DNA from: Pseudomonadota bacterium
GTDB taxonomy: Bacteria; Pseudomonadota; Gammaproteobacteria; Burkholderiales; Burkholderiaceae_D
DNA length: 64,000 bases
Assembly (NCBI GenBank): GCA_040388805.1
Contig: JAZKBE010000032.1
Location: forward strand, 485-64,484
Direction: 5' to 3'
In this document: positions 5,587 to 45,296 of the stretch, one piece after another
Layout: every line of letters begins with the position of its first letter
How positions within the stretch are numbered: the stretch's first letter is position 1
Program-made: the position numbers and the translations under genes
The notes under the pieces: model-generated
What the model was told of the DNA's origin: nothing
The model's database searches: none
The model's input: only the letters and a program-made list of their open reading frames with translations

Positions 5587-5588
5587 AA

Positions 5589-5658: not shown

Positions 5659-5754
5659 ATTCGCTTGGGGTGCATTGTATAGACAAGCGGCCTTGCACCC
5701 GGAACAGAATTAACCCTTATAATTGGATGGATAATAGCCGTCCCCGGTAGTCCC

Positions 5755-6681: not shown

Positions 6682-6714
6682 CCACTTAGTCAAAAACCTT
6701 GAACTGGAATCTCC

Positions 6715-7947
<1,233 letters not shown>

Positions 7948-7966
7948 GTCACGCTGTTGCGCATTC

Positions 7967-7993
7967 AGGCCGCCTGCGGGCGGCCTTTTTTTT
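7967..7993 (+). terminator. Intrinsic terminator after argG
   Basis: AGGCCGCC-TGCG-GGCGGCCT followed by a T run. Confidence 0.85.
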
Positions 7994-8061
7994 GAACCTG
8001 CCCCCTTGTGGCCCGGCAAAATGTTACATTTGCGGTAGTCAATATAGTCGGGGAGGCAAGG

Positions 8062-9876: not shown

Positions 9877-9895
9877 AGGAAAAGGGGAAGCGGCG

Positions 9896-12251: not shown

Positions 12252-14476
12252 GCCAGGACAAGGACAAGGACCTGAGCCAGTTCTCGATGCAGGACCTGTT
12301 CCGCATGGAGGCGGAAGGACAGGCGCAGATCCTGACCGATGGCCTGCTGGCCATGGAACGGGGCGGCGGCGAGGCGGCTACCGTCGAATCGCTGATGCGC
12401 GCGGCCCACTCGATCAAGGGCGCGGCCGCCATCGTCGGCCTGGACGTCGTGATCCAGCTGGCGCACGCCATGGAAGACGCCTTCATCGCGGCCCAGCACC
12501 AGCGCCTGGTGCTCACGCCGGAACGCATCGACGTGCTGCTGTCCTGCGTGGACCTGATCTACCAGGTGTCGCTGCAGACCGAGAGCACCGTGGCCGCCTG
12601 GCTGGGCGAACACCGCGAACGCATCACGTCCCTGATGCTGGCGGTGACCGGCATCGACCAGATCGCGTCGACACCGCCGCTGGCAGTGCCCGAGGAAGCC
12701 GCGCCCGAAGAAGCGGCGCCGGCCGCGCGCAGCACGGGCGCCGTGCCGCGCGCCCAGGCCCACTCCTACGAACGCCTGCTGGCGCTGGCCAGCGAGTCGC
12801 GCATCAATGCACACCAGATGCATCCGTTCATCGCGGCCACGCAGCGCTTCAAGCGCAACCAGCGCTCCCTGTTCCAGGCCATGGAGCAGCTGCACGACGC
12901 GATCCTGGCCGGCGGCAACGCGCACTTGATCGACCAGTCGACGCAGGCCATGCAAAGGTCGCATCCGCTCAAGCAGTTCGTGCTGGGCCACCTGGCCGAC
13001 ATGGAAAACTACGAACGGCGCCTGATCGGCGTGGCGGAGAAACTGGTCGACGAAGTCCTGACCCTGCGCATGCGCCCTTTCCGCGACGGCGTGCAGCATT
13101 TCCCGCGCATGGTGCGCGACCTCGCGCGCAGCCTGGGAAAGGAAGCGCAGCTGGTGATCCTGGGCGAAGACAGCCTGGTCGACCGCGACATCCTGGCCGG
13201 CATCGAAAGCCCGCTCAACCACATCCTTCGCAATGCCGTCGACCACGGCATCGAAGCGCCGCAATACCGGCTGGCGCTGGGCAAGCCGGCGCTGGGAACG
13301 ATCACGCTCGAAGCGCGCCACCGGGCCGGCATGCTCAGCATCGAGATCAGCGACGACGGCGCCGGGGTCGACCTGGAGCGCATCCGCGCCAACGTCACCA
13401 CGCGCAAGCTGGCCAGCCCCGGCATGGCCGCCGCCATGTCGCAGGTCGAGCTGATGGAATTCCTGTTCCTGCCCGCGTTCAGCCTGAAGGAAACGACCAG
13501 CGAAGTCTCCGGGCGCGGGGTGGGCATGGACATCGTGCTGCAGACCGTGCGCGAGCAAAACGGCAGCGTGCACTTGGACACCGAGGCCGGGCGCTGGTTC
13601 CGCACCAGCATCACCCTGCCGCTGACCCAGTCCATCGTGCGCACGCTGGTGGTCGACGTCCAGGGCGAGGCCTACGCCATCCCCATCGTCAAGGTCGAAC
13701 GGGTGCTCAAGGTGGCGCGGGGCGCCATCCACACGTTGGAAAACAAGCAGTTCTTCGACTTCGGCGGCGAACACCTTGGTCTGGTCGCGGCCAGCCAGGT
13801 GCTGGAACTGGGCCAGATGCAGGACGGCGCCGACGAACTGGCGGTGGTGGTGATCGGCACCGGCGCGCGCCGCTACGCGCTGGTGGTCGACGCCATCCGC
13901 GGCGAACAAAGCCTGGCGGTGCAGGCGCTCGATCCGATCTTCGGCAAGATGCGGGACATCAGCTCGGCCGCCCTGCTCGACGACGGCGCGCCGGTCCTGA
14001 TCCTGGACGTGCCCGACCTGCTGCTCTCGATCGACAAGCTGCTCGGCGAAGGCGGCCTGCAGCAGCTGGCGCACGGCGACGGGCGCGAGCAGCGCCGTGC
14101 CAAGCGCATCCTGGTGGTGGACGACTCGCTTACCGTGCGCGAAATGGAACGCAAGCTGCTGCAGGCGCGCGGCTACGCGGTCGACATCGCCATCGACGGC
14201 ATCGACGGCTGGAACGTGGTGCGCAGCGGCGACTACGACCTGGTCATCACCGACGTCGACATGCCGCGCATGGACGGCATCGAACTGGTTGCCCTGATCA
14301 AGAAGGACGTCCACCTGCACAAGCTGCCGGTGATGATCGTCTCCTACAAGGACCGTGCCGAGGACCGCGCGCGCGGCATGACGGCCGGCGCCGACTACTA
14401 CCTGACCAAGGGCAGCTTCCACGACGAGACCCTGCTCGACGCCGTGTTCGAACTGATCGGAGACGCGGGACAATGA
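12248..14476 (+). CDS. wspE: Hybrid CheA-like kinase (Hpt-HATPase-CheW-REC), WspE
   Basis: Hpt RAAHSIKGAA, HILRNAVDHGIE, DDGAG, SGRGVGMD, C-terminal REC (VVDDSLTVRE, TDVDMPRMDG). Confidence 0.92.
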   Translation: MSQDKDKDLSQFSMQDLFRMEAEGQAQILTDGLLAMERGGGEAATVESLMRAAHSIKGAAAIVGLDVVIQLAHAMEDAFIAAQHQRLVLTPERIDVLLSCVDLIYQVSLQTESTVAAWLGEHRERITSLMLAVTGIDQIASTPPLAVPEEAAPEEAAPAARSTGAVPRAQAHSYERLLALASESRINAHQMHPFIAATQRFKRNQRSLFQAMEQLHDAILAGGNAHLIDQSTQAMQRSHPLKQFVLGHLADMENYERRLIGVAEKLVDEVLTLRMRPFRDGVQHFPRMVRDLARSLGKEAQLVILGEDSLVDRDILAGIESPLNHILRNAVDHGIEAPQYRLALGKPALGTITLEARHRAGMLSIEISDDGAGVDLERIRANVTTRKLASPGMAAAMSQVELMEFLFLPAFSLKETTSEVSGRGVGMDIVLQTVREQNGSVHLDTEAGRWFRTSITLPLTQSIVRTLVVDVQGEAYAIPIVKVERVLKVARGAIHTLENKQFFDFGGEHLGLVAASQVLELGQMQDGADELAVVVIGTGARRYALVVDAIRGEQSLAVQALDPIFGKMRDISSAALLDDGAPVLILDVPDLLLSIDKLLGEGGLQQLAHGDGREQRRAKRILVVDDSLTVREMERKLLQARGYAVDIAIDGIDGWNVVRSGDYDLVITDVDMPRMDGIELVALIKKDVHLHKLPVMIVSYKDRAEDRARGMTAGADYYLTKGSFHDETLLDAVFELIGDAGQ

Positions 14477-15483
14477 AGATCGGGATCGCCAACGACGTCG
14501 CGATGGCCGCCGAAGCGCTGCGGCGCGTGATCGCCAGCACCAGCGAACACCAGGTGCTGTGGATCGCGCGCACGGGCAAGGAAGCGGTGCGCATGTGCGC
14601 CGAACAGCGGCCCGACCTGGTGCTGATGGACCTGAACATGCCGGAACTGGACGGGGTGGAAGCGACCCGCCAGATCATGGAAAAGACGCCCTGCGCGATC
14701 CTGATCGTGACCGGGGCGCCGCAGGACAATGTGAGCCAGGTGTTCCGGGCGCTGGGCGCCGGCGCCCTGGACGTCACCGCCACCCCGATCCTGGCAGGCG
14801 GCAGCGGCGGCGACGCCGCCCTGCTGGCCAAGGTCAAGACCATCGGCAAGCTGGTGCGCGCCAGCGCCGGCGAAGCCCATGTGCAGTCCGGCGCGCAGGG
14901 CAGCAGCGACGTGCGCCACGTGGTGGCCATCGGCGCTTCGACCGGTGGGCCGGTCGCGGTGGCCGGCATCTTGCGGCGCTGGATTCCGCCGCCGGGAACG
15001 GCCATCGTCGTGATCCAGCACATCGATGAAAATTTCGCCCCGCATTTTTCGAAATGGCTGGGCGACCAGCTCGCCATTCCCGTCAAGGTGGTCCAGGATG
15101 GCGACAGCCTGGGAGCGGGCTGCGTGATGGTGGCGCGGACCAATGACCACCTGGCGCTCGACGCGCGCCACCGCCTGCATTACGACGCCGAACCGCGCGA
15201 CTATGCCTACCGCCCCTCGGTCGACGTGTTTTACCGCTGCCTGGCGCGGCACTGGGAGGGAGATGCCACCGGCATCCTGCTGACCGGCATGGGGCGCGAC
15301 GGCGCCCAGGGCTTGCTGGCCATGCGCAAGGCGGGCAAGCTCACCATCGCCCAGGACCAGGACAGCTGCGCCGTGTATGGCATGCCGCGCGCGGCCGCCG
15401 AGATCGGCGCGGCGGCGCAGATATTGTCACTCGACCACATTTCCAGACTGCTCAGGAGCCGCCCGGGATCAAAACTGTCATAA
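14473..15483 (+). CDS. wspF: CheB-type methylesterase response regulator, WspF
   Basis: MKIGIAND REC domain; catalytic IGASTGGP, QH, LTGMGRDGA. True start at 14473, inside the long 12208-15483 ORF. Confidence 0.92.
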   Translation: MKIGIANDVAMAAEALRRVIASTSEHQVLWIARTGKEAVRMCAEQRPDLVLMDLNMPELDGVEATRQIMEKTPCAILIVTGAPQDNVSQVFRALGAGALDVTATPILAGGSGGDAALLAKVKTIGKLVRASAGEAHVQSGAQGSSDVRHVVAIGASTGGPVAVAGILRRWIPPPGTAIVVIQHIDENFAPHFSKWLGDQLAIPVKVVQDGDSLGAGCVMVARTNDHLALDARHRLHYDAEPRDYAYRPSVDVFYRCLARHWEGDATGILLTGMGRDGAQGLLAMRKAGKLTIAQDQDSCAVYGMPRAAAEIGAAAQILSLDHISRLLRSRPGSKLS

Positions 15484-15515
15484 TGCATCAAATACTTTCT
15501 TATTTGTAAAAAATC

Positions 15516-16544
15516 ATGCCACCGGAAATTTACAAAACTGCGGCGACGCAAGAAGCGGCGATCACCCAGTTCAAGGTGCGCGTCTTGCTGGTCGACGACC
15601 AGCTGATCATCGTGGAAGCCGTCCGCCGCATGCTCGATGGCCAGCCCGACATCGAATTTCACTATTGCACCGACGCCAAGGCCGCGCTGGCCACGGCCGA
15701 GCAACTCCAGCCCACCGTCATCCTGCAAGACCTGGTCATGCCCGGCATCGACGGTTTCGGGCTGATCAAGCTGTATCGCGACAGCGCGGCGCTGCACAAT
15801 GTGCCGGTGCTGGTGCTGTCGGCGCGCGAAGACCCCAAGCTCAAGGCCCACGGTTTTGCGATGGGCGCCAACGATTACCTGGTCAAGCTGCCGGACCGGC
15901 TGGAACTGCTGGCGCGGGTACGCTATCACTCGGCCGGCCACATCAGCGCGCTGCAGCGCGACGAAGCTTTCCGTTTCCTGCGCGAAAGCCAGAAAAACCT
16001 GGCCAACGCCAATATCGAATTGCAAAAGCTGGCCGCGCTCGACAGCCTGACGGGGATCGCCAACCGGCGCCGTTTCGACGACACCATGGGCATCGAATGG
16101 CAGCGCGGGCAACGCGACAAGCAGCCGCTGGCGCTGCTGATGTGCGACCTCGACTATTTCAAGGCCTACAACGACGCATTCGGCCACCTGGCGGGCGACC
16201 TGTGCCTGAAAAAGGCGGCGGCGGTGCTGACCGAAAACCTGAAGCGCCCAGCGGACCTGTCTTCCCGTTACGGCGGCGAAGAATTCGCCATCGTGCTGCC
16301 CGAGACCGACCTGGCCGGCGCGCTGGTGGTGGCCGCGGCCTGCCGCAGCCATCTGGAACAACTGGCCATCGCCCATCCGGGCTCGCCGCTGGGCGTGGTC
16401 ACCATGTCGATCGGCGTGGCCAGCGTGCTGCCTTCGCCGGGCGGCACGATCGAAGGCCTGATCGGCTGCGCCGACCAGGCCCTGTACGACGCCAAGAAGG
16501 GCGGGCGCAACCGCGTAAGCCAGGCCAGCGCGGCACCGGATTAA
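15516..16544 (+). CDS. wspR: REC-GGDEF diguanylate cyclase, WspR
   Basis: REC (LVDDQ, QDLVMP), DSLTGIANRR, I-site RPAD five residues before GGEEF. Confidence 0.93.
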   Translation: MPPEIYKTAATQEAAITQFKVRVLLVDDQLIIVEAVRRMLDGQPDIEFHYCTDAKAALATAEQLQPTVILQDLVMPGIDGFGLIKLYRDSAALHNVPVLVLSAREDPKLKAHGFAMGANDYLVKLPDRLELLARVRYHSAGHISALQRDEAFRFLRESQKNLANANIELQKLAALDSLTGIANRRRFDDTMGIEWQRGQRDKQPLALLMCDLDYFKAYNDAFGHLAGDLCLKKAAAVLTENLKRPADLSSRYGGEEFAIVLPETDLAGALVVAAACRSHLEQLAIAHPGSPLGVVTMSIGVASVLPSPGGTIEGLIGCADQALYDAKKGGRNRVSQASAAPD

Positions 16545-16569
16545 TCACAACGAGGAACACAGGAAGACC

Positions 16570-16881
16570 ATGAGCACTTTGAGCAATGTAGCCCTGACCA
16601 AGAAATCGAATGTGTACTTTGACGGCAAATGCGTCTCGCATACCGTGCTGCTGGCCGACGGCAGCAAGAAAACGGTGGGCGTGATCTTCCCCTCCTCGCT
16701 GACCTTCAACACGCTCGCCCCGGAAATCATGGAACTGGTGGCCGGCAAATGCCGCGTGCGCCTGGCGGGCGAGACCGCATGGCAAAGCTACGAAGGCGGT
16801 CAGCAATTTTCGGTAGGCGCCAACACCTCCTTCGACATCGAAACGATAGAACTGCTCGACTACGTCTGCCACTTCGGCTGA
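16570..16881 (+). CDS. ppnP: Pyrimidine/purine nucleoside phosphorylase (DUF1255)
   Basis: NVYFDGKC.S, KTVGV, F.T.APEIME and YVCHFG family motifs. Confidence 0.9.
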   Translation: MSTLSNVALTKKSNVYFDGKCVSHTVLLADGSKKTVGVIFPSSLTFNTLAPEIMELVAGKCRVRLAGETAWQSYEGGQQFSVGANTSFDIETIELLDYVCHFG

Positions 16882-36115: not shown

Positions 36116-36871
36116 ATGGCACTCGGAAAAGTCTATCTGGTGGGCGCCGGTCCCGGCGCCCAGGACCTGATCACCCTGCGCGGTGCGCGCCTGCTCGCGC
36201 AAGCGGACGTGGTGCTGCACGACGCCCTGGTGACCGACGAGATGCTGGCGCTGTGCCCGCAAGCGGAAAAAATCCTGGTCGGCAAACGCTGCGGCCAGCT
36301 GTCGACGGCGCAAGCCTTCATCAACAAGCAGATGGTCGACAAGGCGAAAAAGCATGCCCTGGTGGTGCGCCTGAAAGGCGGCGACCCGATGCTGTTCGGG
36401 CGCGCCGACGAAGAGTTGCGCGCGCTGGAAGAAGCCGGCATCGAGGTCGAGGTGGTGCCCGGCATTACCACGGCCGTGGCGGCAGCGGCGGCAAGCAAGC
36501 AGCCGCTGACCAAGCGCGGCGTGTCGCGCAGCGTGGCGTTTTTTACCTCCAGCACGGCGCCGGAACATGCGGAGCACGCGGCCATTCCCGATACCGACAC
36601 CCTGGTGCAGTACATGGGCGGGCGCGAAGCGATCGTGACGGCGCAGCGCATGCTCGACCAGGGCCGGCGCCCCGATACCCCGGTGGTGGTGATTGAAAAC
36701 TGCAGCCGTCCGGATCAGCGCATCATGCGCCTGACGCTGGCCACGCTGGCGCACGGCCTGGGCCCGGCCCACGGACCGGTGCTGGTGATGCTGGGCGATG
36801 CCATGAAAATGCGGGCCAGCCAGGCCGGCGATACCGTGGAAGCGGAACAGCCAGCCAAGCTGCAGGCCTGA
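36116..36871 (+). CDS. cobA: Uroporphyrinogen-III C-methyltransferase
   Basis: VYLVGAGPG, VVRLKGGDP and EVVPGITT motifs; context of siroheme supply. Confidence 0.92.
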   Translation: MALGKVYLVGAGPGAQDLITLRGARLLAQADVVLHDALVTDEMLALCPQAEKILVGKRCGQLSTAQAFINKQMVDKAKKHALVVRLKGGDPMLFGRADEELRALEEAGIEVEVVPGITTAVAAAAASKQPLTKRGVSRSVAFFTSSTAPEHAEHAAIPDTDTLVQYMGGREAIVTAQRMLDQGRRPDTPVVVIENCSRPDQRIMRLTLATLAHGLGPAHGPVLVMLGDAMKMRASQAGDTVEAEQPAKLQA

Positions 36872-37276
36872 CTATCCGGCACGGCACTTGCTGTCGTGCT
36901 CATCGATTTCCCATTGCAGCTTGTCGGCGCTGGCGTAGGTTTCTTCCGCGATCCTGTGCAGGCGGCTGAAGGAGCGCTGCAGGCGCGCGCTCAGCCGCGA
37001 ACTGTGCAAGCCCCCCAGCTGGCAGCGGATGTCGCGGATATCTTCCTTCAAACCCTTGAGCGAATCACGCAGGCCGCAATCGGGGTCGACCGTTTCGTCC
37101 ACGGGCCCTTCCTGCATGCGCGCGCGCAGTTCGTTGATCCGGGCGCCCATGGCCGCCAGCCGGTCCGCCACCCGGTCCAGCCGCAGCGCACAGCGCCGTT
37201 CGGCGCCCAGCGCCAGCAGCATGCTTTCGGCGCGCCGGAATAGATCCAGTACTTCTTTGAAGGTCGAGGTAAGCAT
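36872..37276 (-). CDS. Hypothetical all-helical protein (134 aa)
   Basis: Open frame with coding-like composition; start chosen at MLTSTFKEV. No recognisable motif. Confidence 0.55.
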   Translation of the reverse strand: MLTSTFKEVLDLFRRAESMLLALGAERRCALRLDRVADRLAAMGARINELRARMQEGPVDETVDPDCGLRDSLKGLKEDIRDIRCQLGGLHSSRLSARLQRSFSRLHRIAEETYASADKLQWEIDEHDSKCRAG

Positions 37277-37406
37277 GATGGCCGCCGTCGTGACAGGGAG
37301 AGGATCAGGAAATTCTGGGCGCATACGGCGCCCGTGGATCTGACCCAGAACAAATCCCGTCGATGTTTTACAATCCTGGTTCCGCCACTTCCATGGAACG
37401 CTCGCC

Positions 37407-37829
37407 ATGAACTTCCTGAACACCGTCCTGCTCGCCTTGTCGCTGCTGGCCGCCCCGGCCCTGGCTGCCGACGACGCATCCCACTTCCAGCTCAGTCCGA
37501 CAATCCTGCAAAAGCTGATGAGCGCGGAAGCCGAGATGAAGCTGCTGCAAAAGCCCGACGAGGGCCTGGCCGCCCCCGACGAAGACAAGTCGATCGCGGC
37601 GGCGATCCGCCGCATCGACGCCGATCCGAAGACCACTGCCGTGCTCGCCAAGCACGGCCTCACCAGCCGCGACCTGGTGCTCTCCACCCACGCCCTGTAT
37701 CACGCCGGCATGTTCGTTTCCACCGAAAGCACGCTGGACGAGAAAAAGCGCGCGGCGTTGTACCAGAGCTATACCAGCGAGCAGCAGGCCAATATCGACA
37801 TGATTCGCGCCATGCACGCGGCGAAATAA
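37407..37829 (+). CDS. Hypothetical exported protein
   Basis: Sec signal peptide MNFLNTVLLALSLLAAPALA (A-x-A cleavage); helical mature part. Confidence 0.7.
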   Translation: MNFLNTVLLALSLLAAPALAADDASHFQLSPTILQKLMSAEAEMKLLQKPDEGLAAPDEDKSIAAAIRRIDADPKTTAVLAKHGLTSRDLVLSTHALYHAGMFVSTESTLDEKKRAALYQSYTSEQQANIDMIRAMHAAK

Positions 37830-37876
37830 GTTTTCGCCGCGTCGCTTGCATTCAGCAAGGACATCGGCCATAATCT

Positions 37877-37897
37877 AAATGAGAATTGTTCTCATTT
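37877..37897 (+). promoter_or_regulatory. Fur box
   Basis: Perfect 9-3-9 palindrome AAATGAGAA-TTG-TTCTCATTT, 15 bp before the hemP ATG; matches the Fur consensus (AATGAGAATnATTCTCA type). Confidence 0.85.
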
Positions 37898-37912
37898 ATA
37901 AAAGGCTTAGCG

Positions 37913-38086
37913 ATGCATACCCCTCAACCCGGCGCCCTGGCGGCGCCGCAGCCATCTCCGGCCGCGCCTGTCAGGCTCAACAGCCGGGAACTGTTCCAGA
38001 AGGCACGGTCGGTTCAGATCGAACACGACGGCAAGATCTATGAATTGCGCGTGACCCGCTTGAACAAGCTGATCCTCACAGCCTGA
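37913..38086 (+). CDS. hemP: Hemin uptake protein HemP/HmuP
   Basis: S.ELF....VQIEHDGKIYELRVTRLNKLILT is the HemP family signature (KLILT). Start ATG at 37913. Confidence 0.88.
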   Translation: MHTPQPGALAAPQPSPAAPVRLNSRELFQKARSVQIEHDGKIYELRVTRLNKLILTA

Positions 38087-38157
38087 GTTTTCCCCACAGC
38101 CAGCCAGCGCACCGTGAGCGCAAGCGAGCCAACCACCCTACTCCAAGGAGCGTTGCA

Positions 38158-38466
38158 ATGGCAATCGACATGGCATCCCCCACTTATCCGCACGCGCACG
38201 CGCCGGCGCCGCAGCCCGAACTGCTGGTCTCGGCGGCCCTGCACCTGATGTCGCATTACAGCGCCAGCGCGGCCCGCACCGAACCATGCATCAAGCTCGC
38301 TTCCGTGATCGAACGCCACCTGAAGGCGCTGGCCGGCCATGGCGACCTCAATCCCGTCCTGCGCGCCACCTGCCAGCAATTGTCCGAACAATGGGGCGCC
38401 GTGGTCGACCAGGCCCTGCGCCCGGCACGGCCGTCGCTGTTCGGGCGCTTCAGCCGAGGGCGATAG
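38158..38466 (+). CDS. Hypothetical small His/Cys-containing helical protein downstream of hemP
   Basis: AGGAG RBS before the ATG; open 102 aa frame; no family recognised. Confidence 0.7.
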   Translation: MAIDMASPTYPHAHAPAPQPELLVSAALHLMSHYSASAARTEPCIKLASVIERHLKALAGHGDLNPVLRATCQQLSEQWGAVVDQALRPARPSLFGRFSRGR

Positions 38467-40042
38467 CGCAGGCGTAGGGCGCCATCTGCGCGCCATTGAC
38501 GCCGAAGGCATACAGGCTGCGGTGGGCCGCGATGGCGAGCGGCAGCGCGCATGGCTCGCCCGACAGATTGACTGCGACCAGGATGCGCTGCGCCGGCGTG
38601 CTGCGCCAAAACAGCAGCAATTGCGGCGCGCCGCTGCGCACGAAATGCACCGCGCCGTGGCGCAGGGCTGCGTGTTCGCGGCGCAGCGCGATCAGCGCGC
38701 GGTAGTGGTGGAAGGTGGTGTCGTCGAAGCTGTCCCAGTCGAGCTGCATGCCGTCGAACAGCGAAGCCCAGGTGTTCAGGCGCGGCTCGTTGAATTCCTG
38801 GCCCATCATCAGGTGCGGCACGCCGTCGAGCGTGAGCACCACGGCCGCCGCCGCCAGATGGAGCAGGCGGCCGAAATACAGGTGGGCCCTGCCCTGCTCC
38901 TTTTCTTCCAGCCAGCGCATGCGCAGCGCGCCGCGCGGGAAAGTGTAGGTCGATTCTTCCCATTGCCAGCGGACCGCATCGGCGCCCGCCTGGCCCTGGG
39001 AGATGCGCAGCATGGTTTCGCGCGCACCGCCGTCGTAGGTGAGGTCGCAGGCGTCCAGGTGGTGCAGTTCGTCGGTCGATTGCGAAATGAGGCCGATATC
39101 GGGCCGCACGGCCACCAGGGCGGCGCGGATCTCGTCGAGGAAATCGAGCGGCGTGATGTCGGCATCGTCGAAGCGCATGCCGTCCAGGTCGAAGCCGGTG
39201 ATCCAGTCCTGCATGGCCTTGATCAGGTAGGCGCGCAGCGCGCGGCTGCGGAAGTCGAAGCCGGCGAACATGCTGCGGTTCGGTACCGCGTAATACACGC
39301 GCCCGGCCGCGTCGCGCGTGAACCAGTCGGGATGGGTGTCGGTCAGCGGGTTGTCGGCACTGGCGCGGTTGAGCGTCCAGTCGAAGATGATGCGCATGCC
39401 GCGCGCATGCATGTCGGCGACCAGCGCGCGCAGCTCGTCGGCAGTGCCCAGCGCCGGATCGATCGCCAGGAAGTCGCGCGTGGCGTACAAGTCGCCATGG
39501 CTGCGGTTGCGCGGCTGCACCGGCATCATCCAGATGACGTTGATGCCCAGGTCCTGCAGGTAGGGCAGCTTCGCGCGCACCCCGTTGAAGGTACCGGCAA
39601 AGGCGTGCACCGACAGCTGGTAGATGACCGCGTCGCGCAGCCATTGCGGGCTGGCCAGCGCCGTGCGGCGGCGATACAGGTCGCCCGGCGTCTGCTGCGA
39701 TGCTTCGCCGGTGCGGATGAACACATCGCCGAACTCGTTGATCGTGAAGCAGGAATTGTTCTGCGCGTCTTCGGAAATCCATGGGTTGGCCGGATCGAGG
39801 ATCCAGTCGGTGCCGTTGACGACAATCTTGTAGTGATGGCGGCCCGGGTTGGCGCGTACCGTGCCCTGCCAGGTGCTGCGGCCCACGCGCGTCAGGGGCG
39901 CGGCATCGCCCACCCAGCTGTTGAAGGTGCCGGCAACGGCGACGCTGTCGACGCCTGCCCCGCCTTCGAAAGTAAACCGGATGCCGGCGGCTGTTTTTTG
40001 CGGCAGCAGTTCGTGCCGGAGAGGTCGGATAGAAGTCGTCAT
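38450..40042 (-). CDS. CBM48/E-set + GH13 alpha-amylase-fold protein with non-canonical active site
   Basis: N-terminal SVAVAGTFNSW...YKIVVNG..W..DP.NP; GH13 scaffold (DAVIYQL, LQDLGINVIWMMP, IDPALGT, DGMRFD, GVPHLMMGQE). Start ATG at 40042; no signal peptide. Confidence 0.85.
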   Translation of the reverse strand: MTTSIRPLRHELLPQKTAAGIRFTFEGGAGVDSVAVAGTFNSWVGDAAPLTRVGRSTWQGTVRANPGRHHYKIVVNGTDWILDPANPWISEDAQNNSCFTINEFGDVFIRTGEASQQTPGDLYRRRTALASPQWLRDAVIYQLSVHAFAGTFNGVRAKLPYLQDLGINVIWMMPVQPRNRSHGDLYATRDFLAIDPALGTADELRALVADMHARGMRIIFDWTLNRASADNPLTDTHPDWFTRDAAGRVYYAVPNRSMFAGFDFRSRALRAYLIKAMQDWITGFDLDGMRFDDADITPLDFLDEIRAALVAVRPDIGLISQSTDELHHLDACDLTYDGGARETMLRISQGQAGADAVRWQWEESTYTFPRGALRMRWLEEKEQGRAHLYFGRLLHLAAAAVVLTLDGVPHLMMGQEFNEPRLNTWASLFDGMQLDWDSFDDTTFHHYRALIALRREHAALRHGAVHFVRSGAPQLLLFWRSTPAQRILVAVNLSGEPCALPLAIAAHRSLYAFGVNGAQMAPYACAIALG

Positions 40043-40063
40043 GTGGCGATATTCTACCCATAT

Positions 40064-40099
40064 AAAAAAACCCCCGCCAGGGGACAACCTGCGGGGGTT
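40064..40099 (-). terminator. Intrinsic terminator between the TBDR and GH13 genes
   Basis: Minus strand AACCCCCGCAGG-TTGTCC-CCTGGCGGGGG followed by T7. Confidence 0.75.
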
Positions 40100-40145
40100 A
40101 AAGCTGTTGGCGCAGGTGGAGCCCTGTGCCTCCAGGAGAGCGCTG

Positions 40146-42512
40146 TTAGAACTTGGCCGAGATGCGCACGCCTGCAGTGCGCGGCGGGTTGTAGAAGGCA
40201 ACCCAGGTCTGGCCAGGGGTGCCGGCGGCAACCCAGTTCGCGTCCGTCTTGACCGCTTCGTCGGTGGCATTCATCACGAATACTTCGGCGAGCCATTTGC
40301 GGCCGGCCGCTTCGTAACGCAAGGCCAGGTCGAGCGTGCTGTAGGCTTTCTGTTCGCGTGCATCGGCAAAGCTGCCGGCCAGCTGCGCAGGACCCGGGGT
40401 GGTATTGAACTCGCTGATGTACGACTTGGTCTGGTAATGGACCGATGCACGCGGCGTGAGCTTGCCGTCGCCGATGGCGAAGTCATGCTCGTAGGCGGCC
40501 GTCATCGAGAAGGTCGGTGCGTGGCGCAGCTTGTTCCCTTTCAGGTTGATGCTTTGCGTATTGCAGTCCATGTACGACGAATCGCAGGTGATGAAGTCGC
40601 CATAGGTCGCGTCCAGCCAGTTGGCGTTGCCCATCAGGCGGTCGCTGCGGCCGATGCGCCAGTTGAACTCCGTTTCCACGCCGTTGATCGACGAGCGCGC
40701 GGCATTGCCCGTGACGACCTGCTGCTGGCCGTTCTGCAGGCGTTCCACCGACGAGACCTGCATGTCCTTGTACTTCATCGCAAAGGCGGACACGTTGAAG
40801 GTCAGCGCGCGGTTGAACCATTCCGACTTCAGGCCCAGCTCGTAGTTGGTGATGAACTCGGGCTTGAAGAAGCGCCCGCCGTCGCCGAAGCCGCCCGACT
40901 TGAAGCCGGTCGACACCGAGGCGTAGCCATTCACGTCGCGCGACATCATGTATTCGGCGCGCGCCAGGAAGGTGGTGGCGCTGTCCACCGGCGAGATGGC
41001 GCTGTTGTCGCCGCCGCCTGGCCAGGTGCCCGGTGCATAGGCGCTGCCGCAGGACTGTGCGTTGACCGGGCCGCCGGCGCCGATCAGGTGGCCGCCGGTA
41101 CCGACGGTCGAACCGAAGTTCGGGCATACCCAGTTGCGACCGCCCTTGTCTTCCTTCTGTTCACGCGTGTGGCGCATGCCGCCGGTGAGCTTGAAGCTGT
41201 CGGACAAAGCGAACGTCGCCTGACCGAATACGGCTTTCGAGTCGAGCGTGCGGTTCGGCTGGATGAAGGACATGGCCCAGGCAGTATCGCCAGGCAGGGT
41301 CGGATGCACCACGATCGGTCCCACGCCCGGCGTGACGGCCGTTTGCGAAATGTCGATGTCGAAGCGGATGCTGTTGTCTTCGTGGATCATGAAGCCGCCG
41401 ATCAGCCACTGGAACGGCGCTTTTTCATCGTTCGACTTGAACTGCAGCTCGTGCGTGTAGTTGTCGAACTTGGACCACTCGGTGCGGTGCTCCTGCTTGA
41501 AGCCCGGCAGCACGCCGGCATCGTTGTCGCTGGCATTGGTGCGTTTGAGCTGGCTGGCGCTGCCGATGTAGCTCAGTTCGACCGCGTCGGTCGGGCGGTA
41601 GTTCAGGCGCGTGCGGTAGCTCACGTTCGACTGGGCCAGTGCGCCCGGAGTGTCGATCAGGGCCGAATACAGCGGCTGGCCCGCGCGCGGACGCTGCATC
41701 AGCGCCACGTTGCCGGTGCCGTTGTCGCGGTAGTACTCGATGGCGCCCAGGGCGTCGAAGCGGTCGGTCGGATGCCACTTGGCCGAAGCGCGCACGCCCA
41801 GCTGGTCGCCGGCCATGTACTTGCGCTGGCCCGACACCACGTTCGAACGGGGCTGGAAGTCGACATAGCCGTCATGCTTTTCGCTGATGGCGGCCACGCG
41901 CACTGCCAGGGTATCGGACAGCGGCACGTTGACCGCGGTGCTCATGCCGATGCGGTTGTACTGGCCGGCGATGAACTGGGCATTGCCGCCGAACTTGTCG
42001 AAGCGCGGCTTGGCCGTTTCCAGGTTGACCGAGCCGGCGGTGGCGTTACGGCCGGACAGCGTGCCTTGCGGGCCGCGCGCCACCTCGACGTGATCGAGGT
42101 CGTACATCAATACAGTGGCGCCCTGCGGACGCGGCGAATACACGCCGTCAACGTGGAAGGCGACGGCAGGATCGCCGATTTCGGTGTGGTTGGTGGAACC
42201 GACGCCGCGCATGAACACGTGCACGCCGCCCGAGTCGCCGTGCTGCTCGACCACCAGGTTGGGCACCATGACCTGCAACGAGGTCAGGTCGACCACGCCG
42301 GCATTGTCCAGGGTGGCCTGGCTGAAGGCGGTGACGGCCAGCGGCGTATCCTGCAGCAGCGTGGCGCGCTTGGTGGCGGTCACGACGATGCGTTCGACCT
42401 GGTCGGACTCTCCCTGTACCGGTGCGCTCTGCTGCGCGAATGCGCCGCCCGCGGACAAGATCGCGAACGGTGCCAGCGTCCACACCATTTTTCTCTTTGT
42501 TGAATGCTTCAT
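40146..42512 (-). CDS. TonB-dependent outer membrane receptor
   Basis: Signal peptide, TonB box ERIVVTA, plug motifs (FHVDGVY, EVARGPQGTLSGRNATAGSVN), C-terminal PRTAGVRISAKF. Confidence 0.95.
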   Translation of the reverse strand: MKHSTKRKMVWTLAPFAILSAGGAFAQQSAPVQGESDQVERIVVTATKRATLLQDTPLAVTAFSQATLDNAGVVDLTSLQVMVPNLVVEQHGDSGGVHVFMRGVGSTNHTEIGDPAVAFHVDGVYSPRPQGATVLMYDLDHVEVARGPQGTLSGRNATAGSVNLETAKPRFDKFGGNAQFIAGQYNRIGMSTAVNVPLSDTLAVRVAAISEKHDGYVDFQPRSNVVSGQRKYMAGDQLGVRASAKWHPTDRFDALGAIEYYRDNGTGNVALMQRPRAGQPLYSALIDTPGALAQSNVSYRTRLNYRPTDAVELSYIGSASQLKRTNASDNDAGVLPGFKQEHRTEWSKFDNYTHELQFKSNDEKAPFQWLIGGFMIHEDNSIRFDIDISQTAVTPGVGPIVVHPTLPGDTAWAMSFIQPNRTLDSKAVFGQATFALSDSFKLTGGMRHTREQKEDKGGRNWVCPNFGSTVGTGGHLIGAGGPVNAQSCGSAYAPGTWPGGGDNSAISPVDSATTFLARAEYMMSRDVNGYASVSTGFKSGGFGDGGRFFKPEFITNYELGLKSEWFNRALTFNVSAFAMKYKDMQVSSVERLQNGQQQVVTGNAARSSINGVETEFNWRIGRSDRLMGNANWLDATYGDFITCDSSYMDCNTQSINLKGNKLRHAPTFSMTAAYEHDFAIGDGKLTPRASVHYQTKSYISEFNTTPGPAQLAGSFADAREQKAYSTLDLALRYEAAGRKWLAEVFVMNATDEAVKTDANWVAAGTPGQTWVAFYNPPRTAGVRISAKF

Positions 42513-42605
42513 GTGTCTCCTCGATTTCGTCGGTTGAATTTGTCGCAGCTCTTTGGCTGTTTATTTATTGTTGTGCTCTCCGTCATGTCGTCGCGTTCTC
42601 TCGCT

Positions 42606-42735
42606 TGAAAACGTTTTCATGATGTGCAGCCATTTAACACCTGATTTTTTGCCAAGTCAAACATTTTATGAAAACGTTTTCAAGAAATTGAGGGGAATGG
42701 GGCAAATATGGTACGCTGCGATGAAAAGCTTTTCA
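42606..42735. promoter_or_regulatory. Three LacI-family operators in the TBDR / lacI divergent promoter
   Basis: TGAAAACGTTTTCA at 42606-42619 and 42669-42682; TGAAAAGCTTTTCA at 42722-42735. Confidence 0.85.
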
Positions 42736-42736
42736 C

Positions 42737-43771
42737 ATGAATGGATGCCCCTTGAACGACCCCGACAACAGCGCCCCACCCTCCACCCTGATCGACGTCG
42801 CGCGCCTGGCCGGCGTCTCGCCCAGCACCGTGTCGCGCATCCTCAACGGCACCGCCAAGGTCTCCGACGACAAGCGCCTGGCGGTGTTGTCGGCCATCGA
42901 CAAGATGAATTTCGCGCCCAACCAGATGGCGCAGGGCTTAAAGCGCGGCAAATCGATGACGATCGGAATCGTGGTGCAGGATATCTCCAGCCCCTTCTTC
43001 GACGAAACGCTGCGCGGGGTCGACGATGGCATCAAGGGCACCGGCTATGCGTCGGTGATCGTCAGCGGCCACTGGAACGCGGACGAGGAAGTCGAGCGCA
43101 TCCGCCTTCTGCTGGCGCGCAAGGTGGACGGCATCATCGTGCTGTCGGGGCGCCTGGGCGACGAAGCCATCCTGCAGTTCGCCAACCAGAAGCCCATCGT
43201 CTCGACCGGGCGCGAGCTGAACACGGCCAATGCGCTCGGCTTCAAGCTCGATAACGAATACGGCGCCTACCTCGCGGTGCGCCATTTGATCGAACTGGGA
43301 CACCGCCGCATCGCCTTCGTGACGGGGCCGGCCAACAACAACGACGCGGCCGAACGCCTGACCGGCTACAAGCGCGCGCTGCGCGAAGGCGATATAGTCT
43401 TCGATCCGAAGCTGGTGGCCGAAGGCGACTTCCATGAAGCGGGCGGCCTGCTGGCGGCCAGCCACCTGTTCGAAACGAACCAGCAGTTCACCGCGGTGTT
43501 CGCGGCCAACGACCTTTCCGCCTATGGCATCAGGCTGTGCCTGTACCGCAAGGGAATCCGCGTGCCGGACGATATTTCACTGGTCGGTTTCGATGATTTG
43601 CCCGGTTCGTCCTACACCACGCCGCCGCTGACGACCATCCGCCAGCCGCTGTACGACATGGGCCGCATCGCCAGCAATTCGCTGCTGCGCCTGATCAATG
43701 GGGAAACGGTGACGGCATCGCTGCCGCCGCTGGAACTGGTGGTGCGCGAAACGACGCGCGTGATGCGCTAG
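42737..43771 (+). CDS. LacI family transcriptional regulator
   Basis: TLIDVARLAGVSPSTVSRILN HTH, NFAPN hinge, VFAANDLSA, SLVGFDD and PPLTTIRQP motifs. Start may be TTG at 42752. Confidence 0.95.
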   Translation: MNGCPLNDPDNSAPPSTLIDVARLAGVSPSTVSRILNGTAKVSDDKRLAVLSAIDKMNFAPNQMAQGLKRGKSMTIGIVVQDISSPFFDETLRGVDDGIKGTGYASVIVSGHWNADEEVERIRLLLARKVDGIIVLSGRLGDEAILQFANQKPIVSTGRELNTANALGFKLDNEYGAYLAVRHLIELGHRRIAFVTGPANNNDAAERLTGYKRALREGDIVFDPKLVAEGDFHEAGGLLAASHLFETNQQFTAVFAANDLSAYGIRLCLYRKGIRVPDDISLVGFDDLPGSSYTTPPLTTIRQPLYDMGRIASNSLLRLINGETVTASLPPLELVVRETTRVMR

Positions 43772-44142
43772 TTCCTGTTGAAGGAAGCGACGCAATAGTC
43801 GGTCATGGCCTTGAGCACGCCGGGGTCTTCGCCCACGGCGCCGGCCACGCCGATCTCCAGCTGCGGCAGCTCGGCGCGCAGCTGCTCCACCATCAGCGGC
43901 AGGTCGCGCAGCAAATGCCCGCCCTGCCCCAGGAACACCGGCACGATGGTCAGGCCCGTGACGCCCTGCGCGGCCAGGCTGGCGACATGGGCCGGCAGGC
44001 GCGGCTCCATCAGTTCGAGGAAGGCCAGCGATACCGGCACGCCGGGCATCTGCGCCTGGACCAGGTCGCGCAGGCGCTCGAACGGCGCGGCCCAGGATGC
44101 GGCGCGCGCACCGTGCGCGAACAGGACCAGGGCCCGCGTCAT
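43768..44142 (-). CDS. cbiX: CbiX/SirB family sirohydrochlorin chelatase
   Basis: LFAHG, AFLELM.P and VPVFLGQGGHLLRDLP motifs. ATG at 44142 overlaps the lptG stop. Confidence 0.88.
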   Translation of the reverse strand: MTRALVLFAHGARAASWAAPFERLRDLVQAQMPGVPVSLAFLELMEPRLPAHVASLAAQGVTGLTIVPVFLGQGGHLLRDLPLMVEQLRAELPQLEIGVAGAVGEDPGVLKAMTDYCVASFNRN

Positions 44143-45296
44143 CCGTACCTCTCGACCCGCCACAGCGCCGCCAGCGCCAGCGCCAGGAACACCAGGCTGG
44201 GCATGATGGCCGTGACGACGGCCGGCATGCCGCTCAGCAGTCCCAGGTGCGCGAACAGGCTGTTGACCAGCATGTAGCCGACCCCGATCATGATGCCGAT
44301 GAAGATCTTCAAGCTCACGCCGCCGCTGCGCGTGTGCAGGTAGGCGAAAGGCAGCGCCAGCGCCATCAGCACGAAGATGGCGAGCGGGTCGAACAGCTTC
44401 TTCCAGAACGCGATGTTGAAGCGTTCGGTCTCCTGCTTGTTTTCCGACAGGTGGCGCGTGTACACCGCCAGTTCGACGGCCGACATGCGCTCGGGATCGG
44501 ACGCCGACACGGAAATGATGCGGGGCGTGATCTCGGACACCAGGTCCATGGCCGGCAGCTTGCGCGTGGTGACCACGCTGCTGCCCTGGCCGAAATTGAC
44601 GGCGTCGGCGGCGGCCGGCGCGGTATTGGAGAACACGTTCTCGGTCACGTCCTCGAGGCGCCAGGTGTTGTTGCCGGTGAAGGTGGCGCGCGCCGCGGTG
44701 ATCAAAGAACGCATGCGCAGCGAGGTATCGAATTCATACAGGCGCACGTCGATCAGCTGGCCGTCGGGCCGGTACTGGCGCACATTGAAAAAGCGCGATC
44801 CGGTGACGGCGCCCTTGACGCCGTCGGCGCGCACCACATCCTTGGTCCACATGCCCGAACTGAGGCCCTGCGACACCGTGGCGCCGCGCGCGGTGAGTCT
44901 GAGCTTTTCCGCCAGCGGCGCGGTGCGCGGCGCGATCAGTTCGCCGAAAATGAAGGTCACGCCCACCAGCACGATGCCGATCTTGAAAAGCATGCCGGCC
45001 GCCATGCGGGTCGACATGCCGGAGGCGCGCATGATGGTGAATTCGGAACTCGATGCAAACTGCGCCATCGTGTAGATGGTGCCGATCAGGGCCGCGACCG
45101 GCATCACTTCATACACGTGGAACGGCAGGCGCAGCAGCACATACAGGAAGGCGTGCTGGATGGCGAAGCCGTTCTTGCCCACCGACGGCAGTTCGTTGGT
45201 CAAGTCGAAAAAGCCCGACAGCGCCAGGAATGCCGCCAGGACGAAGGCCACCGCCTGGGCGATGGAGACCGCGAAGTAACGCTGGAGGATGATCAT
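44139..45296 (-). CDS. lptG: LPS export ABC permease LptG
   Basis: ILQRYF, SSEFTIMRASG, FWKK...P.....LALPF motifs; tandem with lptF. Start at 45296. Confidence 0.92.
   Translation of the reverse strand: MIILQRYFAVSIAQAVAFVLAAFLALSGFFDLTNELPSVGKNGFAIQHAFLYVLLRLPFHVYEVMPVAALIGTIYTMAQFASSSEFTIMRASGMSTRMAAGMLFKIGIVLVGVTFIFGELIAPRTAPLAEKLRLTARGATVSQGLSSGMWTKDVVRADGVKGAVTGSRFFNVRQYRPDGQLIDVRLYEFDTSLRMRSLITAARATFTGNNTWRLEDVTENVFSNTAPAAADAVNFGQGSSVVTTRKLPAMDLVSEITPRIISVSASDPERMSAVELAVYTRHLSENKQETERFNIAFWKKLFDPLAIFVLMALALPFAYLHTRSGGVSLKIFIGIMIGVGYMLVNSLFAHLGLLSGMPAVVTAIMPSLVFLALALAALWRVERYG

What the first reader, a model, noticed from the sequence alone, without database searches (positions are those of the whole stretch)
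38450..43771. Candidate undescribed glycoside utilisation system: LacI + TonB receptor + atypical GH13
Seen: a TBDR and the atypical GH13 lie on one strand, divergent from a LacI gene whose intergenic region carries three operators. There is no inner-membrane transporter, and the GH13 has no signal peptide. Established: TBDR + LacI + glycosidase loci (CUT loci of Xanthomonas and Caulobacter) scavenge specific carbohydrates. Inference: because the only enzyme is non-canonical, the cargo and inducer are probably not starch or maltose. The window's canonical starch enzyme, the pullulanase, sits elsewhere under a different operator.
Basis: partly seen in the sequence, partly recalled or inferred. 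Interest (0 to 1): 0.72.

Follow-up and report, generated by a model that had tools for sequence, protein, structure and literature searches.

The report
Split beta-glucoside uptake regulon beside odd GH13
The LacI repressor and TonB-dependent receptor are the outer-membrane half of an ordinary beta-glucoside uptake regulon whose beta-glucosidase and inner-membrane permease lie elsewhere in the genome. The unusual GH13 protein next door is a separately transcribed neighbour, not part of that system.

Summary
LacI (42737-43771, +) is divergent from a TonB-dependent receptor (TBDR, 40146-42512, -) and a cytoplasmic GH13-like gene (38450-40042, -). The intergenic region carries three TGAAAACGTTTTCA-type operators.

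The three genes are not one system.
- A strong terminator and a conserved -10 box separate the TBDR from the GH13-like gene.
- The exact operator also precedes a GH1 beta-glucosidase and an AmpG-type MFS permease on another contig of the same genome.
- In 23 of 24 other Oxalobacteraceae genomes with a homologous TBDR, it clusters with that GH1, usually with a LacI regulator (22 of 24) and an MFS or ABC importer. None of these clusters holds the GH13-like gene.
- The GH13-like gene normally sits alone between cbiX and cobA. It occurs in only 3 of 151 genomes of the family.

So LacI and the TBDR belong to a split beta-glucoside regulon. The closest described analogue is Shewanella BglR, so it is a new member of a known kind.

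The GH13-like protein is the unusual part. It belongs to a clade found in three phyla that keeps the nucleophile Asp. The acid/base Glu is Gln or His, the region IV His-Asp is Lys-Glu, and the region I His is Arg. Its function is unknown and appears undescribed.

The parts
42737..43771 (+). LacI-family repressor (BglR-like), probably autoregulated
   Evidence: Pfam LacI, Peripla_BP_1 and Peripla_BP_3. Orthologues at 71-97% identity sit beside TBDR/GH1/transporter clusters in 13 other genomes or contigs.
42722..42735 (.). Operator O3, TGAAAAGCTTTTCA, ending 2 nt before the LacI ATG
   Evidence: The same third site is kept in L071, L006 and L066.
42669..42682 (.). Operator O2, exact TGAAAACGTTTTCA, 8 nt upstream of the TBDR -35
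   Evidence: Flanks are nearly identical in L006 and L066.
42632..42660 (-). TBDR promoter-like element: TTGACT, 17 nt, TTAAAT
   Evidence: Read directly from the sequence. The simple scan did not list it, so it is inferred.
42606..42619 (.). Operator O1, exact TGAAAACGTTTTCA, 12 nt downstream of the -10, covering the start of the transcript
   Evidence: The 20-mer is identical to a site in L066.
40146..42512 (-). TonB-dependent outer-membrane receptor; predicted beta-gluco-oligosaccharide importer
   Evidence: Pfam Plug and TonB_dep_Rec_b-barrel. Homologues at 34-55% identity cluster with GH1 in 23 of 24 family genomes.
40062..40099 (-). Intrinsic terminator after the TBDR: GC-rich hairpin followed by seven T
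   Evidence: Fold energy -21.4 kcal/mol, z = -2.5. Conserved in L071, with an equivalent terminator in L006.
40051..40056 (-). -10-like box TAGAAT, 8 nt before the GH13-like ATG: own promoter, near-leaderless
   Evidence: An equivalent GTAAAAT or TATCAT box sits 8-11 nt before the ATG in L001-L006 and L071.
38450..40042 (-). Cytoplasmic GH13-like protein (CBM48 + GH13 barrel + DUF3459) with a remodelled catalytic centre. A resident gene of the cbiX-cobA interval, not part of the regulon.
   Evidence: Synteny.
38158..38466 (+). Convergent 102-aa ORF that ends the GH13-like transcription unit, making it monocistronic
   Evidence: GC3 analysis. Called as a gene in L071 and L072. No Pfam hit.

Best explanation
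LacI and the TBDR form the regulator and outer-membrane arm of a beta-glucoside (Bgl) utilisation regulon that is split over two places in this genome.

Proposed mechanism:
- Without inducer, the LacI repressor binds TGAAAACGTTTTCA operators. In the window these flank the TBDR promoter (O1 over the transcript start, O2 just upstream of -35) and its own start (O3). On contig C15 two operators sit directly after a TTGACA-18-TAGTAT promoter.
- That C15 promoter drives a cytoplasmic GH1 beta-glucosidase and an AmpG-type MFS permease.
- With inducer (probably cellobiose or another beta-linked gluco-disaccharide or oligosaccharide), the TBDR brings beta-gluco-oligosaccharides into the periplasm. The MFS moves them into the cytoplasm and GH1 splits them to glucose.

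The GH13-like gene is an independent, monocistronic neighbour. It is resident between cbiX and cobA, and the LacI/bgl module came to lie upstream of it.

Shown: gene content, operator copies, terminator, synteny and co-occurrence counts. Inferred: which LacI binds which site, the inducer, the cargo, and the promoters.

The GH13-like protein is most likely not a conventional hydrolase. It may act on an alpha-glucoside with an anionic or activated leaving group, or it may be a binding protein.
For: - Operators: the exact operator occurs 4 times in 5.55 Mb. Two copies are in the window. One (plus a 1-mismatch copy 20 nt away) is at C15:23598-23631, right upstream of GH1 and the MFS. One is before a MatE gene.
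- GH1 passes the TIGR03356 'GH1 family beta-glucosidase' equivalog cut-off (599.6 against 478.5). The MFS is AmpG-family-like.
- Family-wide clustering: in 23 of 24 other family genomes the TBDR homologue lies within about 7 kb of an orthologue of that GH1 (66-77% identity). Of the 24, 22 also hold a LacI-family gene (orthologous at 71-82% in 12). Nearly all of the 23 hold that MFS (71-85% identity) or an ABC importer, and operator-like sites. None of the 24 holds the GH13-like gene.
- Three loci from one sibling genus (L066, L074, L075) hold SBP, two permeases, GH1, an ATPase and the closest TBDR type (50% identity) behind the same three-operator layout. LacI (82%) is seen in L074 and L075; L066 is cut just before it. 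The window and L006 look like two different reductions of this form.
- Insulation: a terminator (-21.4 kcal/mol plus seven T) and a conserved -10 box lie between the TBDR and the GH13-like gene, and likewise in L071 and L006.
- In L001-L004 and L072 the GH13-like gene follows cbiX directly, with neither LacI nor TBDR.
- The GH13-like gene is in 3 of 151 family genomes and the TBDR type in 25 of 151. Besides this genome, only one (G131) has both, and there they lie on different contigs.
- A described analogue exists: the Shewanella BglR regulon, with a LacI regulator, GH1 BglA-I, permease BglT and TonB-dependent Omp-Bgl (PMC2996990).
Against: - No expression data.
- The genome has a 55%-identical LacI paralogue (C8) with a similar palindrome, TGAAAGCGCTTTCA. 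Cross-regulation of the C15 operon cannot be excluded.
- The LacI gene lies next to the GH13-like gene in four genomes or contigs (the window, L071, L005/G131, L006). A looser functional link is therefore not ruled out.
- The TBDR's best NCBIfam hits are siderophore-receptor models, all below cut-off. Cargo assignment rests on gene neighbourhood only.
- The exact beta-glucoside (cello-, laminari-, sophoro- or gentio-oligosaccharides, or aryl glucosides) is unknown.
Confidence: 0.75

Rival explanations
1. One reading: LacI, the TBDR and the GH13-like protein are one dedicated three-gene system for an unknown, non-starch glycoside, with the GH13-like protein as its only processing enzyme.
For: The genes are adjacent and the TBDR and GH13-like gene share a strand in the window and in L071. 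LacI lies beside the GH13-like gene in L005 and L006 too.
Against: A terminator and an own -10 box lie between the two genes. TBDR loci with the GH13-like gene: 0 of 24. GH13-like reference loci with the TBDR: 0 of 49. The same operator controls a GH1 and an MFS elsewhere. In L005 LacI abuts the GH13-like gene with no operator.
Confidence: 0.08
2. The GH13-like protein is a loosely coupled accessory of the Bgl regulon. Partial read-through from the TBDR operon raises its level, and it handles a product of beta-glucoside catabolism, for example channelling glucose or glucose-1-phosphate into or out of an alpha-glucan store through its CBM48.
For: It sits next to bgl modules in the window, L071 and L006, where it follows GH1 and the ABC ATPase. 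It has a CBM48-like N-terminal domain. Terminators are rarely 100% efficient (general knowledge).
Against: Most GH13-like loci have no bgl genes. These include Massilia L001-L004 and L072, and the Paenibacillus, Cohnella and Flavobacterium loci. Most bgl loci have no GH13-like gene.
Confidence: 0.12
3. The TBDR carries a non-carbohydrate cargo (a siderophore or haem-like compound), and its position next to LacI is incidental.
For: The best NCBIfam hits are siderophore or haem receptor models. A hemP-like gene lies about 2 kb away.
Against: All those hits are far below cut-off (150 against 223.5 bits). The TBDR promoter is bracketed by LacI operators. Homologues are embedded in GH1 + sugar-transporter operons in 23 of 24 genomes. 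The hemP-like gene belongs to the conserved cbiX-cobA interval, which also exists without the TBDR.
Confidence: 0.03

Closest known systems
Shewanella BglR beta-glucoside regulon (Rodionov et al. 2010, PMC2996990)
   Same: A LacI-type repressor with palindromic sites upstream of a TonB-dependent outer-membrane transporter, a cytoplasmic GH1 beta-glucosidase and an inner-membrane permease. The genes are spread over more than one operon.
   Different: The permease here is AmpG-family MFS (or ABC in sibling genera), not GPH-family BglT. No periplasmic GH3, glucose permease or glucokinase was found under the operator. This is a different bacterial class (Betaproteobacteria), and orthology of the regulators was not tested.
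CUT loci of Xanthomonas and Caulobacter (for example the SuxA sucrose and MalA maltodextrin TBDR loci; own knowledge, not re-read here)
   Same: The logic is the same: a TBDR, a LacI-type regulator, a glycosidase and an inner-membrane transporter for scavenging a specific carbohydrate.
   Different: Here the locus is split across two contigs. The enzyme is a GH1 beta-glucosidase. The adjacent GH13-like gene is not part of the locus.
GH13_48 maltogenic amylase AmyB of Thermotoga neapolitana (PDB 4gkl; PMC11239784)
   Same: It is the best sequence match among solved structures (E 1.2e-43, 26% identity) and a close fold match (TM 0.81 on the target). Conserved regions I-IV and VI can be aligned.
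   Different: The window protein adds a CBM48-like N-terminal domain. It also has Arg for the region I His, Asp-Asp-x-Asp after the nucleophile, Gln for the acid/base Glu, and Lys-Glu for the region IV His-Asp. The GH13_48/49 study dropped 17 such incomplete sequences as 'sequencing errors or ongoing pseudogenization'.
Plant myrosinase (GH1 thioglucosidase; own knowledge) and engineered E-to-Q GH13 mutants (1j0j neopullulanase E357Q, 8dl1 BoGH13ASus E523Q)
   Same: A retaining glycosidase scaffold with the nucleophile kept and the acid/base Glu replaced by Gln. In myrosinase this goes with an anionic, very good leaving group held by Arg residues. In the engineered mutants it is introduced to trap bound substrate (structure titles; that it abolishes hydrolysis is own knowledge).
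   Different: This is an analogy of mechanism only. The fold family is different (myrosinase), or the change is man-made (the mutants). No substrate is known for the window protein.

Membership tests
LacI-controlled TBDR carbohydrate (CUT / Bgl-type) regulon | LacI-family repressor with palindromic operators in the promoters of the target genes | tested here: met
   Three sites lie in the window's intergenic region and two sit before the C15 GH1-MFS operon. Four exact copies genome-wide against about 0.002 expected.
LacI-controlled TBDR carbohydrate (CUT / Bgl-type) regulon | TBDR co-localised with a glycosidase and an inner-membrane sugar transporter across genomes | tested here: met
   23 of 24 family genomes have the TBDR with GH1 and an MFS or ABC transporter. 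In this genome the partners are on C15 behind the same operator.
LacI-controlled TBDR carbohydrate (CUT / Bgl-type) regulon | Induction by the cargo sugar, and growth on it that depends on the system | not testable with these tools
   Needs reporter, EMSA and growth experiments.
   Co-occurrence is 0 of 24 and 0 of 49 across genomes. A terminator and an own -10 box lie between the genes. Only the sister contig L071 shares the layout.
GH13 (alpha-amylase family) | (beta/alpha)8 catalytic barrel with domains B and C, and conserved sequence regions | tested here: met
   Pfam Alpha-amylase 3.1e-23. AlphaFold model pLDDT 88.8. Foldseek top hits are neopullulanase, TVAII and AmyB. Regions I-IV can be aligned.
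GH13 (alpha-amylase family) | Catalytic triad: Asp nucleophile, Glu proton donor, Asp transition-state stabiliser | tested here: not met
   The residues are Asp292, Gln321 and Glu382. The same pattern holds in 118 of 118 homologues (Gln in 110, His in 8) and in the Paenibacillus, Cohnella and Flavobacterium copies.
GH13 (alpha-amylase family) | Retaining cleavage or transfer of alpha-glucosidic bonds | not testable with these tools
   Needs an enzyme assay.
GH13_48 (AmyB-type maltogenic amylases) | Subfamily signature including complete catalytic machinery and the region I His (His103 of AmyB) | tested here: not met
   The region I His is Arg226 and the triad is incomplete. It is the nearest canonical group but not the same one.
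TonB-dependent receptor | Signal peptide, TonB box, plug domain and 22-strand barrel domain | tested here: met
   Plug 1.5e-13 and barrel 2.9e-31. The N-terminus is MKHSTKRKMVWTLAPFAILSAGGAFA, followed by ERIVVTATK. The strand count was not tested.
GH1 beta-glucosidase (partner enzyme on C15) | Score above the NCBIfam TIGR03356 equivalog cut-off | tested here: met
   599.6 bits against a cut-off of 478.5.

The most novel reading that the evidence does not exclude
The GH13-like protein belongs to an uncharacterised GH13 clade, sister to GH13_48, found in Oxalobacteraceae, Paenibacillus/Cohnella and Flavobacterium. Its coordinated active-site rewrite is Arg for the region I His, Asp-Asp-x-Asp after the nucleophile, Gln or His for the acid/base Glu, and Lys-Glu for the His-Asp. 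On this reading the rewrite marks a new chemistry rather than decay. One candidate is cleavage or transfer of an alpha-glucoside that carries an anionic or activated leaving group (phosphate, nucleotide, sulfate or carboxylate) without a protein acid/base, as in myrosinase. The other is a lyase or phosphorylase-type reaction.
Probability: 0.4. Interest if true: 0.7.

Novelty: new member of a known kind. Interest (0 to 1): 0.35.

Why it matters
For the finding as posed, little changes. It is a Betaproteobacterial version of a known design for beta-glucoside uptake through a TonB-dependent receptor, and it is useful mainly for annotation. It assigns a cargo class to a TBDR family, an AmpG-like MFS and a LacI operator in Oxalobacteraceae. 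It also shows how such loci get split and reshuffled, with MFS, ABC and TBDR modules swapped behind one three-operator control region.

The case is also a warning. Adjacency on one strand is not an operon, and here the terminator and comparative genomics overturn the obvious reading.

The lasting point of interest is the neighbour. It is a conserved GH13 clade in three phyla with a rewritten catalytic centre, of a kind that a subfamily survey set aside as errors or pseudogenes. If it is active, it would extend the reaction range of the largest glycosidase family.

Tried and rejected
- TreZ idea: the CBM48 + GH13 + DUF3459 architecture first suggested malto-oligosyltrehalose trehalohydrolase. 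Rejected: TIGR02402 scores 96 bits against a cut-off of 538.8.
- The long ORF start at 40270 was rejected. It overlaps the TBDR, homologues start at the Met of 40042, and the terminator and -10 box lie inside the extension.
- Weaker operator-like sites (2 mismatches) elsewhere in the genome are mostly inside coding regions or beside unrelated genes. I did not add them to the regulon.
- GH64 beta-1,3-glucanase as a regulon member: it follows the paralogous LacI on C8 behind a different palindrome, and it is absent from all bgl loci fetched. It is kept only as a lead.
- A sulfur link for the GH13-like protein, such as a sulfoquinovosidase-type role suggested by the cys/siroheme neighbours, was considered. 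No evidence goes beyond adjacency, and the Paenibacillus contexts are alpha-glucoside-like instead.
- orf157, orf179 and orf271 from the mechanical ORF list are mostly wrong-frame artefacts of high GC. GC3 analysis and called genes in L071 and L072 give four small genes instead.
- The literature search found no description of this remodelled clade. The BmaN1 'aberrant triad' group, placed in GH13_45, was not examined further.
Full report
**1. What is there**

The interval holds three genes.
- A LacI-family regulator lies at 42737-43771 (+).
- A 788-aa TonB-dependent receptor (TBDR) lies at 40146-42512 (-). It has a signal peptide, a TonB-box-like motif, a plug and a barrel.
- A GH13-like gene lies on the same strand as the TBDR.

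The mechanical ORF for the GH13-like gene starts at 40270 and overlaps the end of the TBDR. The real start is the ATG at 40042, giving 530 aa beginning MTTSIRPLRH. This is where all homologues start.

The 224-bp LacI-TBDR intergenic region carries TGAAAACGTTTTCA exactly at 42606 and 42669, and TGAAAAGCTTTTCA at 42722. That is 5 hits at up to 3 mismatches in the window against 0.97 expected, and no shuffle reached 5.

Reading the sequence on the minus strand gives a promoter-like TTGACT-17-TTAAAT at 42660-42632. Operator O2 lies 8 nt upstream of the -35. O1 lies 12 nt downstream of the -10. O3 ends 2 nt before the LacI ATG. This is a repression and autoregulation layout, but it is inferred from sequence only.

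The flanks are a sulfate-assimilation and siroheme cluster. On one side are cysI, DUF934, cysH, cysD, cysN and cobA. On the other are cbiX, lptF, lptG and pepA. Homologues place the organism in Massilia / Oxalobacteraceae.

**2. The TBDR and the GH13-like gene are separate transcription units**

Between the TBDR stop codon and the GH13-like ATG lies AACCCCCGCAGGTTGTCCCCTGGCGGGGGTTTTTTT. It folds at -21.4 kcal/mol (z = -2.5) and ends in seven U. A TAGAAT box follows, 8 nt before the ATG.

A similar box (GTAAAAT or TATCAT, 8-11 nt before the ATG) precedes every orthologue examined: L001-L006 and L071. In L006 and L071 it follows a terminator closing the upstream operon; in L001-L005 no transporter operon lies upstream.

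Downstream, a convergent 102-aa gene ends the unit. No operator-like site lies near the GH13-like promoter.

**3. The regulon's missing parts are elsewhere in the same genome**

I scanned the 5.55-Mb assembly, in which the window is C32:485-64484. The exact 14-mer occurs only four times. From base composition I estimate about 0.002 by chance.
- Two copies are in the window.
- One is at C15:23618, with a 1-mismatch copy 20 nt away.
- One is at C70:7002.

The C15 pair directly follows a TTGACA-18-TAGTAT promoter. It precedes a 440-aa GH1 beta-glucosidase (C15:22251-23573) and a 432-aa AmpG-family-like MFS permease. The GH1 passes the NCBIfam TIGR03356 equivalog cut-off, 599.6 against 478.5 bits. 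No regulator gene lies beside that operon.

The window LacI is therefore its most likely repressor. A 55%-identical paralogue on C8 sits behind a different palindrome, TGAAAGCGCTTTCA. Cross-talk with that paralogue cannot be excluded.

**4. Comparative genomics**

*Loci holding the GH13-like gene.* In 49 GH13-like loci from reference genomes, no TBDR homologue lies within 8 kb.
- In the four closest reference genomes, L001-L004 (75-77% identity), and in L072 (78%), the order is lptF, cbiX, GH13-like, small genes, cobA, cysN. Neither LacI nor a TBDR is present.
- L005 (equal to G131) has cbiX, LacI and the GH13-like gene, with no transporter and no operator.
- L006 has cbiX, LacI, three operators, an SBP, two permeases, GH1 and an ATPase, then a terminator and the GH13-like gene.
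- Only L071 repeats the window's layout, operators and terminator included. It is a contig from a close relative (LacI 97%, TBDR 93%, GH13-like 88% identical).

*Loci holding the TBDR.* A search of 151 genomes of the family found TBDR homologues in 25 and the GH13-like gene in 3. I fetched all 24 foreign TBDR loci.
- 23 contain an orthologue of the C15 GH1 (mostly 66-77% identical) within about 7 kb.
- 22 contain a LacI-family gene. It is orthologous at 71-82% in 12, and of a 51-56% type in 9.
- Nearly all contain either the C15-type MFS (71-85%) or the L006-type ABC importer, plus TGAAAnCGnTTTCA sites.
- None contains the GH13-like gene.

L074 and L075 carry the fullest form: LacI, three operators, SBP, two permeases, GH1, ATPase and the TBDR type closest to the window's (50% identity). 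L066, from the same genus, shows the same genes but is cut just before LacI. L066's operator flanks are nearly identical to the window's. The window (LacI + TBDR) and L006 (LacI + ABC + GH1) therefore read as two different reductions of that locus, both sitting at the cbiX / GH13-like site.

**5. Mechanism proposed**

The regulon would work as follows.
- LacI represses the TBDR, itself and the GH1-MFS operon.
- A beta-linked gluco-disaccharide or oligosaccharide releases LacI.
- The TBDR takes oligosaccharides across the outer membrane.
- The MFS takes them across the inner membrane.
- GH1 hydrolyses them in the cytoplasm.

This is the design described for the Shewanella BglR regulon. That regulon has a LacI-type BglR, GH1 BglA-I, permease BglT and TonB-dependent Omp-Bgl, and cellobiose uptake by bglA-bglT was shown by complementation (PMC2996990). 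It is also the general design of CUT loci (own knowledge).

The exact sugar is not determined. One lead is that the paralogous LacI on C8 precedes a secreted GH64 beta-1,3-glucanase with three CBM56 modules. Laminari-oligosaccharides are therefore a candidate cargo. However, that gene is not in any bgl locus fetched.

**6. The GH13-like protein**

Its domains are CBM48-like, a GH13 barrel and DUF3459.
- The best solved relative is AmyB of Thermotoga neapolitana (4gkl, GH13_48), at E 1.2e-43.
- The AlphaFold model is confident (pLDDT 88.8, pTM 0.88). It matches neopullulanase, TVAII and AmyB folds.

Aligned to AmyB:

| Region | AmyB (canonical) | Window protein | Change |
|---|---|---|---|
| I | DMVLNH | DWTLNR | His to Arg226 |
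| II | GFRCDVAG | GMRFDDAD | Nucleophile Asp292 kept; Asp293 and Asp295 new |
| III | ISETHD | ISQSTDE | Acid/base Glu to Gln321 |
| IV | ENHD | EEKE | His-Asp to Lys381-Glu382 |

These states are invariant in 118 homologues of 55-88% identity: Arg, Lys and Glu in 118 of 118, Gln in 110 and His in 8. The same states are found in Paenibacillus, Cohnella and Flavobacterium copies at 45-49% identity.

In a profile search of 1.84 billion representatives, about 15 of the top 150 carry the whole signature. The rest are canonical (NH / E / HD), with one partial exception (P0153). This is a discrete, selected clade and not decay.

The GH13_48/49 survey removed 17 sequences lacking the catalytic machinery as 'sequencing errors or ongoing pseudogenization' (PMC11239784). 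I found no paper describing this clade.

E-to-Q at this position appears in substrate-complex crystal structures of GH13 enzymes (1j0j, 8dl1), where, from my own knowledge, it is used to inactivate the enzyme. A conventional hydrolase is therefore unlikely. The gain of Arg and Lys recalls myrosinase, where Gln replaces the acid/base because the leaving group is anionic and very good (own knowledge). This is an analogy, not a test.

Contexts outside Massilia are alpha-glucoside-like.
- About 10 of the Paenibacillus/Cohnella loci show AraC, a TreC-like GH13, the GH13-like gene and an SDR. The TreC-like GH13 passes the NF008183 phosphotrehalase subfamily cut-off.
- One locus shows LacI, GH15, an ABC importer, the GH13-like gene and a neopullulanase-type GH13.

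**7. Verdict**

The interpretation as one undescribed three-gene system is not.

The LacI-TBDR pair is a new member of a known kind, a split Bgl-type regulon, and is of modest interest. The GH13-like neighbour is the unusual item and deserves biochemical study on its own. A separate first-reader note on the same genome (e1-5272171) flags it, and my alignments agree with that note.

Noticed in passing
Own genome C70:7002 (outside the window): A fourth exact TGAAAACGTTTTCA overlaps the -10 (TATAATGTGAAAACG...) of a MatE-family efflux gene at C70:7039-8403. It may be an extra regulon member or a chance site.
   Followed up: partly
Own genome C8:51431-56210 (outside the window): A LacI paralogue (55% identity) lies behind the palindrome TGAAAGCGCTTTCA. 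It is followed by a secreted 1190-aa GH64 beta-1,3-glucanase with three CBM56 and five CHB_HEX_C modules. This enzyme may supply laminari-oligosaccharides to the TBDR.
   Followed up: partly
L006:6308, L064:10366, L065:10324, L066:4651, L074:11574, L075:5286: A 1-mismatch operator-like site recurs inside the GH1 coding sequence in several genera. It could be an internal roadblock operator or a by-product of a conserved peptide. It is absent from the own-genome GH1 at up to 2 mismatches.
   Followed up: no
L036 (Flavobacterium sp. ZT3R18) 2407-16836; window 36116-44163: The GH13-like gene lies beside siroheme-linked assimilation genes in two phyla. In Massilia it sits between cbiX and cobA/cysN. 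In Flavobacterium it sits after a nitrate-reductase/NirB-like fusion and a rubredoxin + NIR_SIR_ferr protein, with a cobA homologue about 6.5 kb away. This may be coincidence or a link.
   Followed up: partly
L014, L016, L018, L020, L022, L026, L027, L035, L039, L048: A recurrent Paenibacillus/Cohnella operon: an AraC regulator, a canonical TreC-like GH13 (passes the NF008183 phosphotrehalase subfamily cut-off), the remodelled GH13-like gene, and a GolD/KduD-like SDR. It is the best available lead to the GH13-like substrate.
   Followed up: partly
Protein P0153 (609 aa) from the representative search: This is the only partial signature seen. It has the canonical region I His and acid/base Glu but Lys-Glu in region IV. 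It may be an evolutionary intermediate between canonical GH13_48-like enzymes and the remodelled clade.
   Followed up: no
window 36872-38466: Four small genes lie between the GH13-like gene and cobA: a 102-aa ORF (38158-38466, +), a hemP-like ORF of about 58-67 aa (around 37883-38086, +), a 140-aa ORF (37407-37829, +) and a 136-aa ORF (36872-37282, -). The three longer ORFs had no Pfam hit; the hemP-like ORF was named from the gene call in L071/L072 (PF10636), not scanned here. All are conserved in L071 and L072.
   Followed up: partly
window against L071: Between the two closest relatives the GH13-like protein (88% identity) has diverged more than LacI (97%) and the TBDR (93%), even though it is the older resident of the site.
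   Followed up: no
It has no TGAAAACGTTTTCA-type site nearby.
   Followed up: partly
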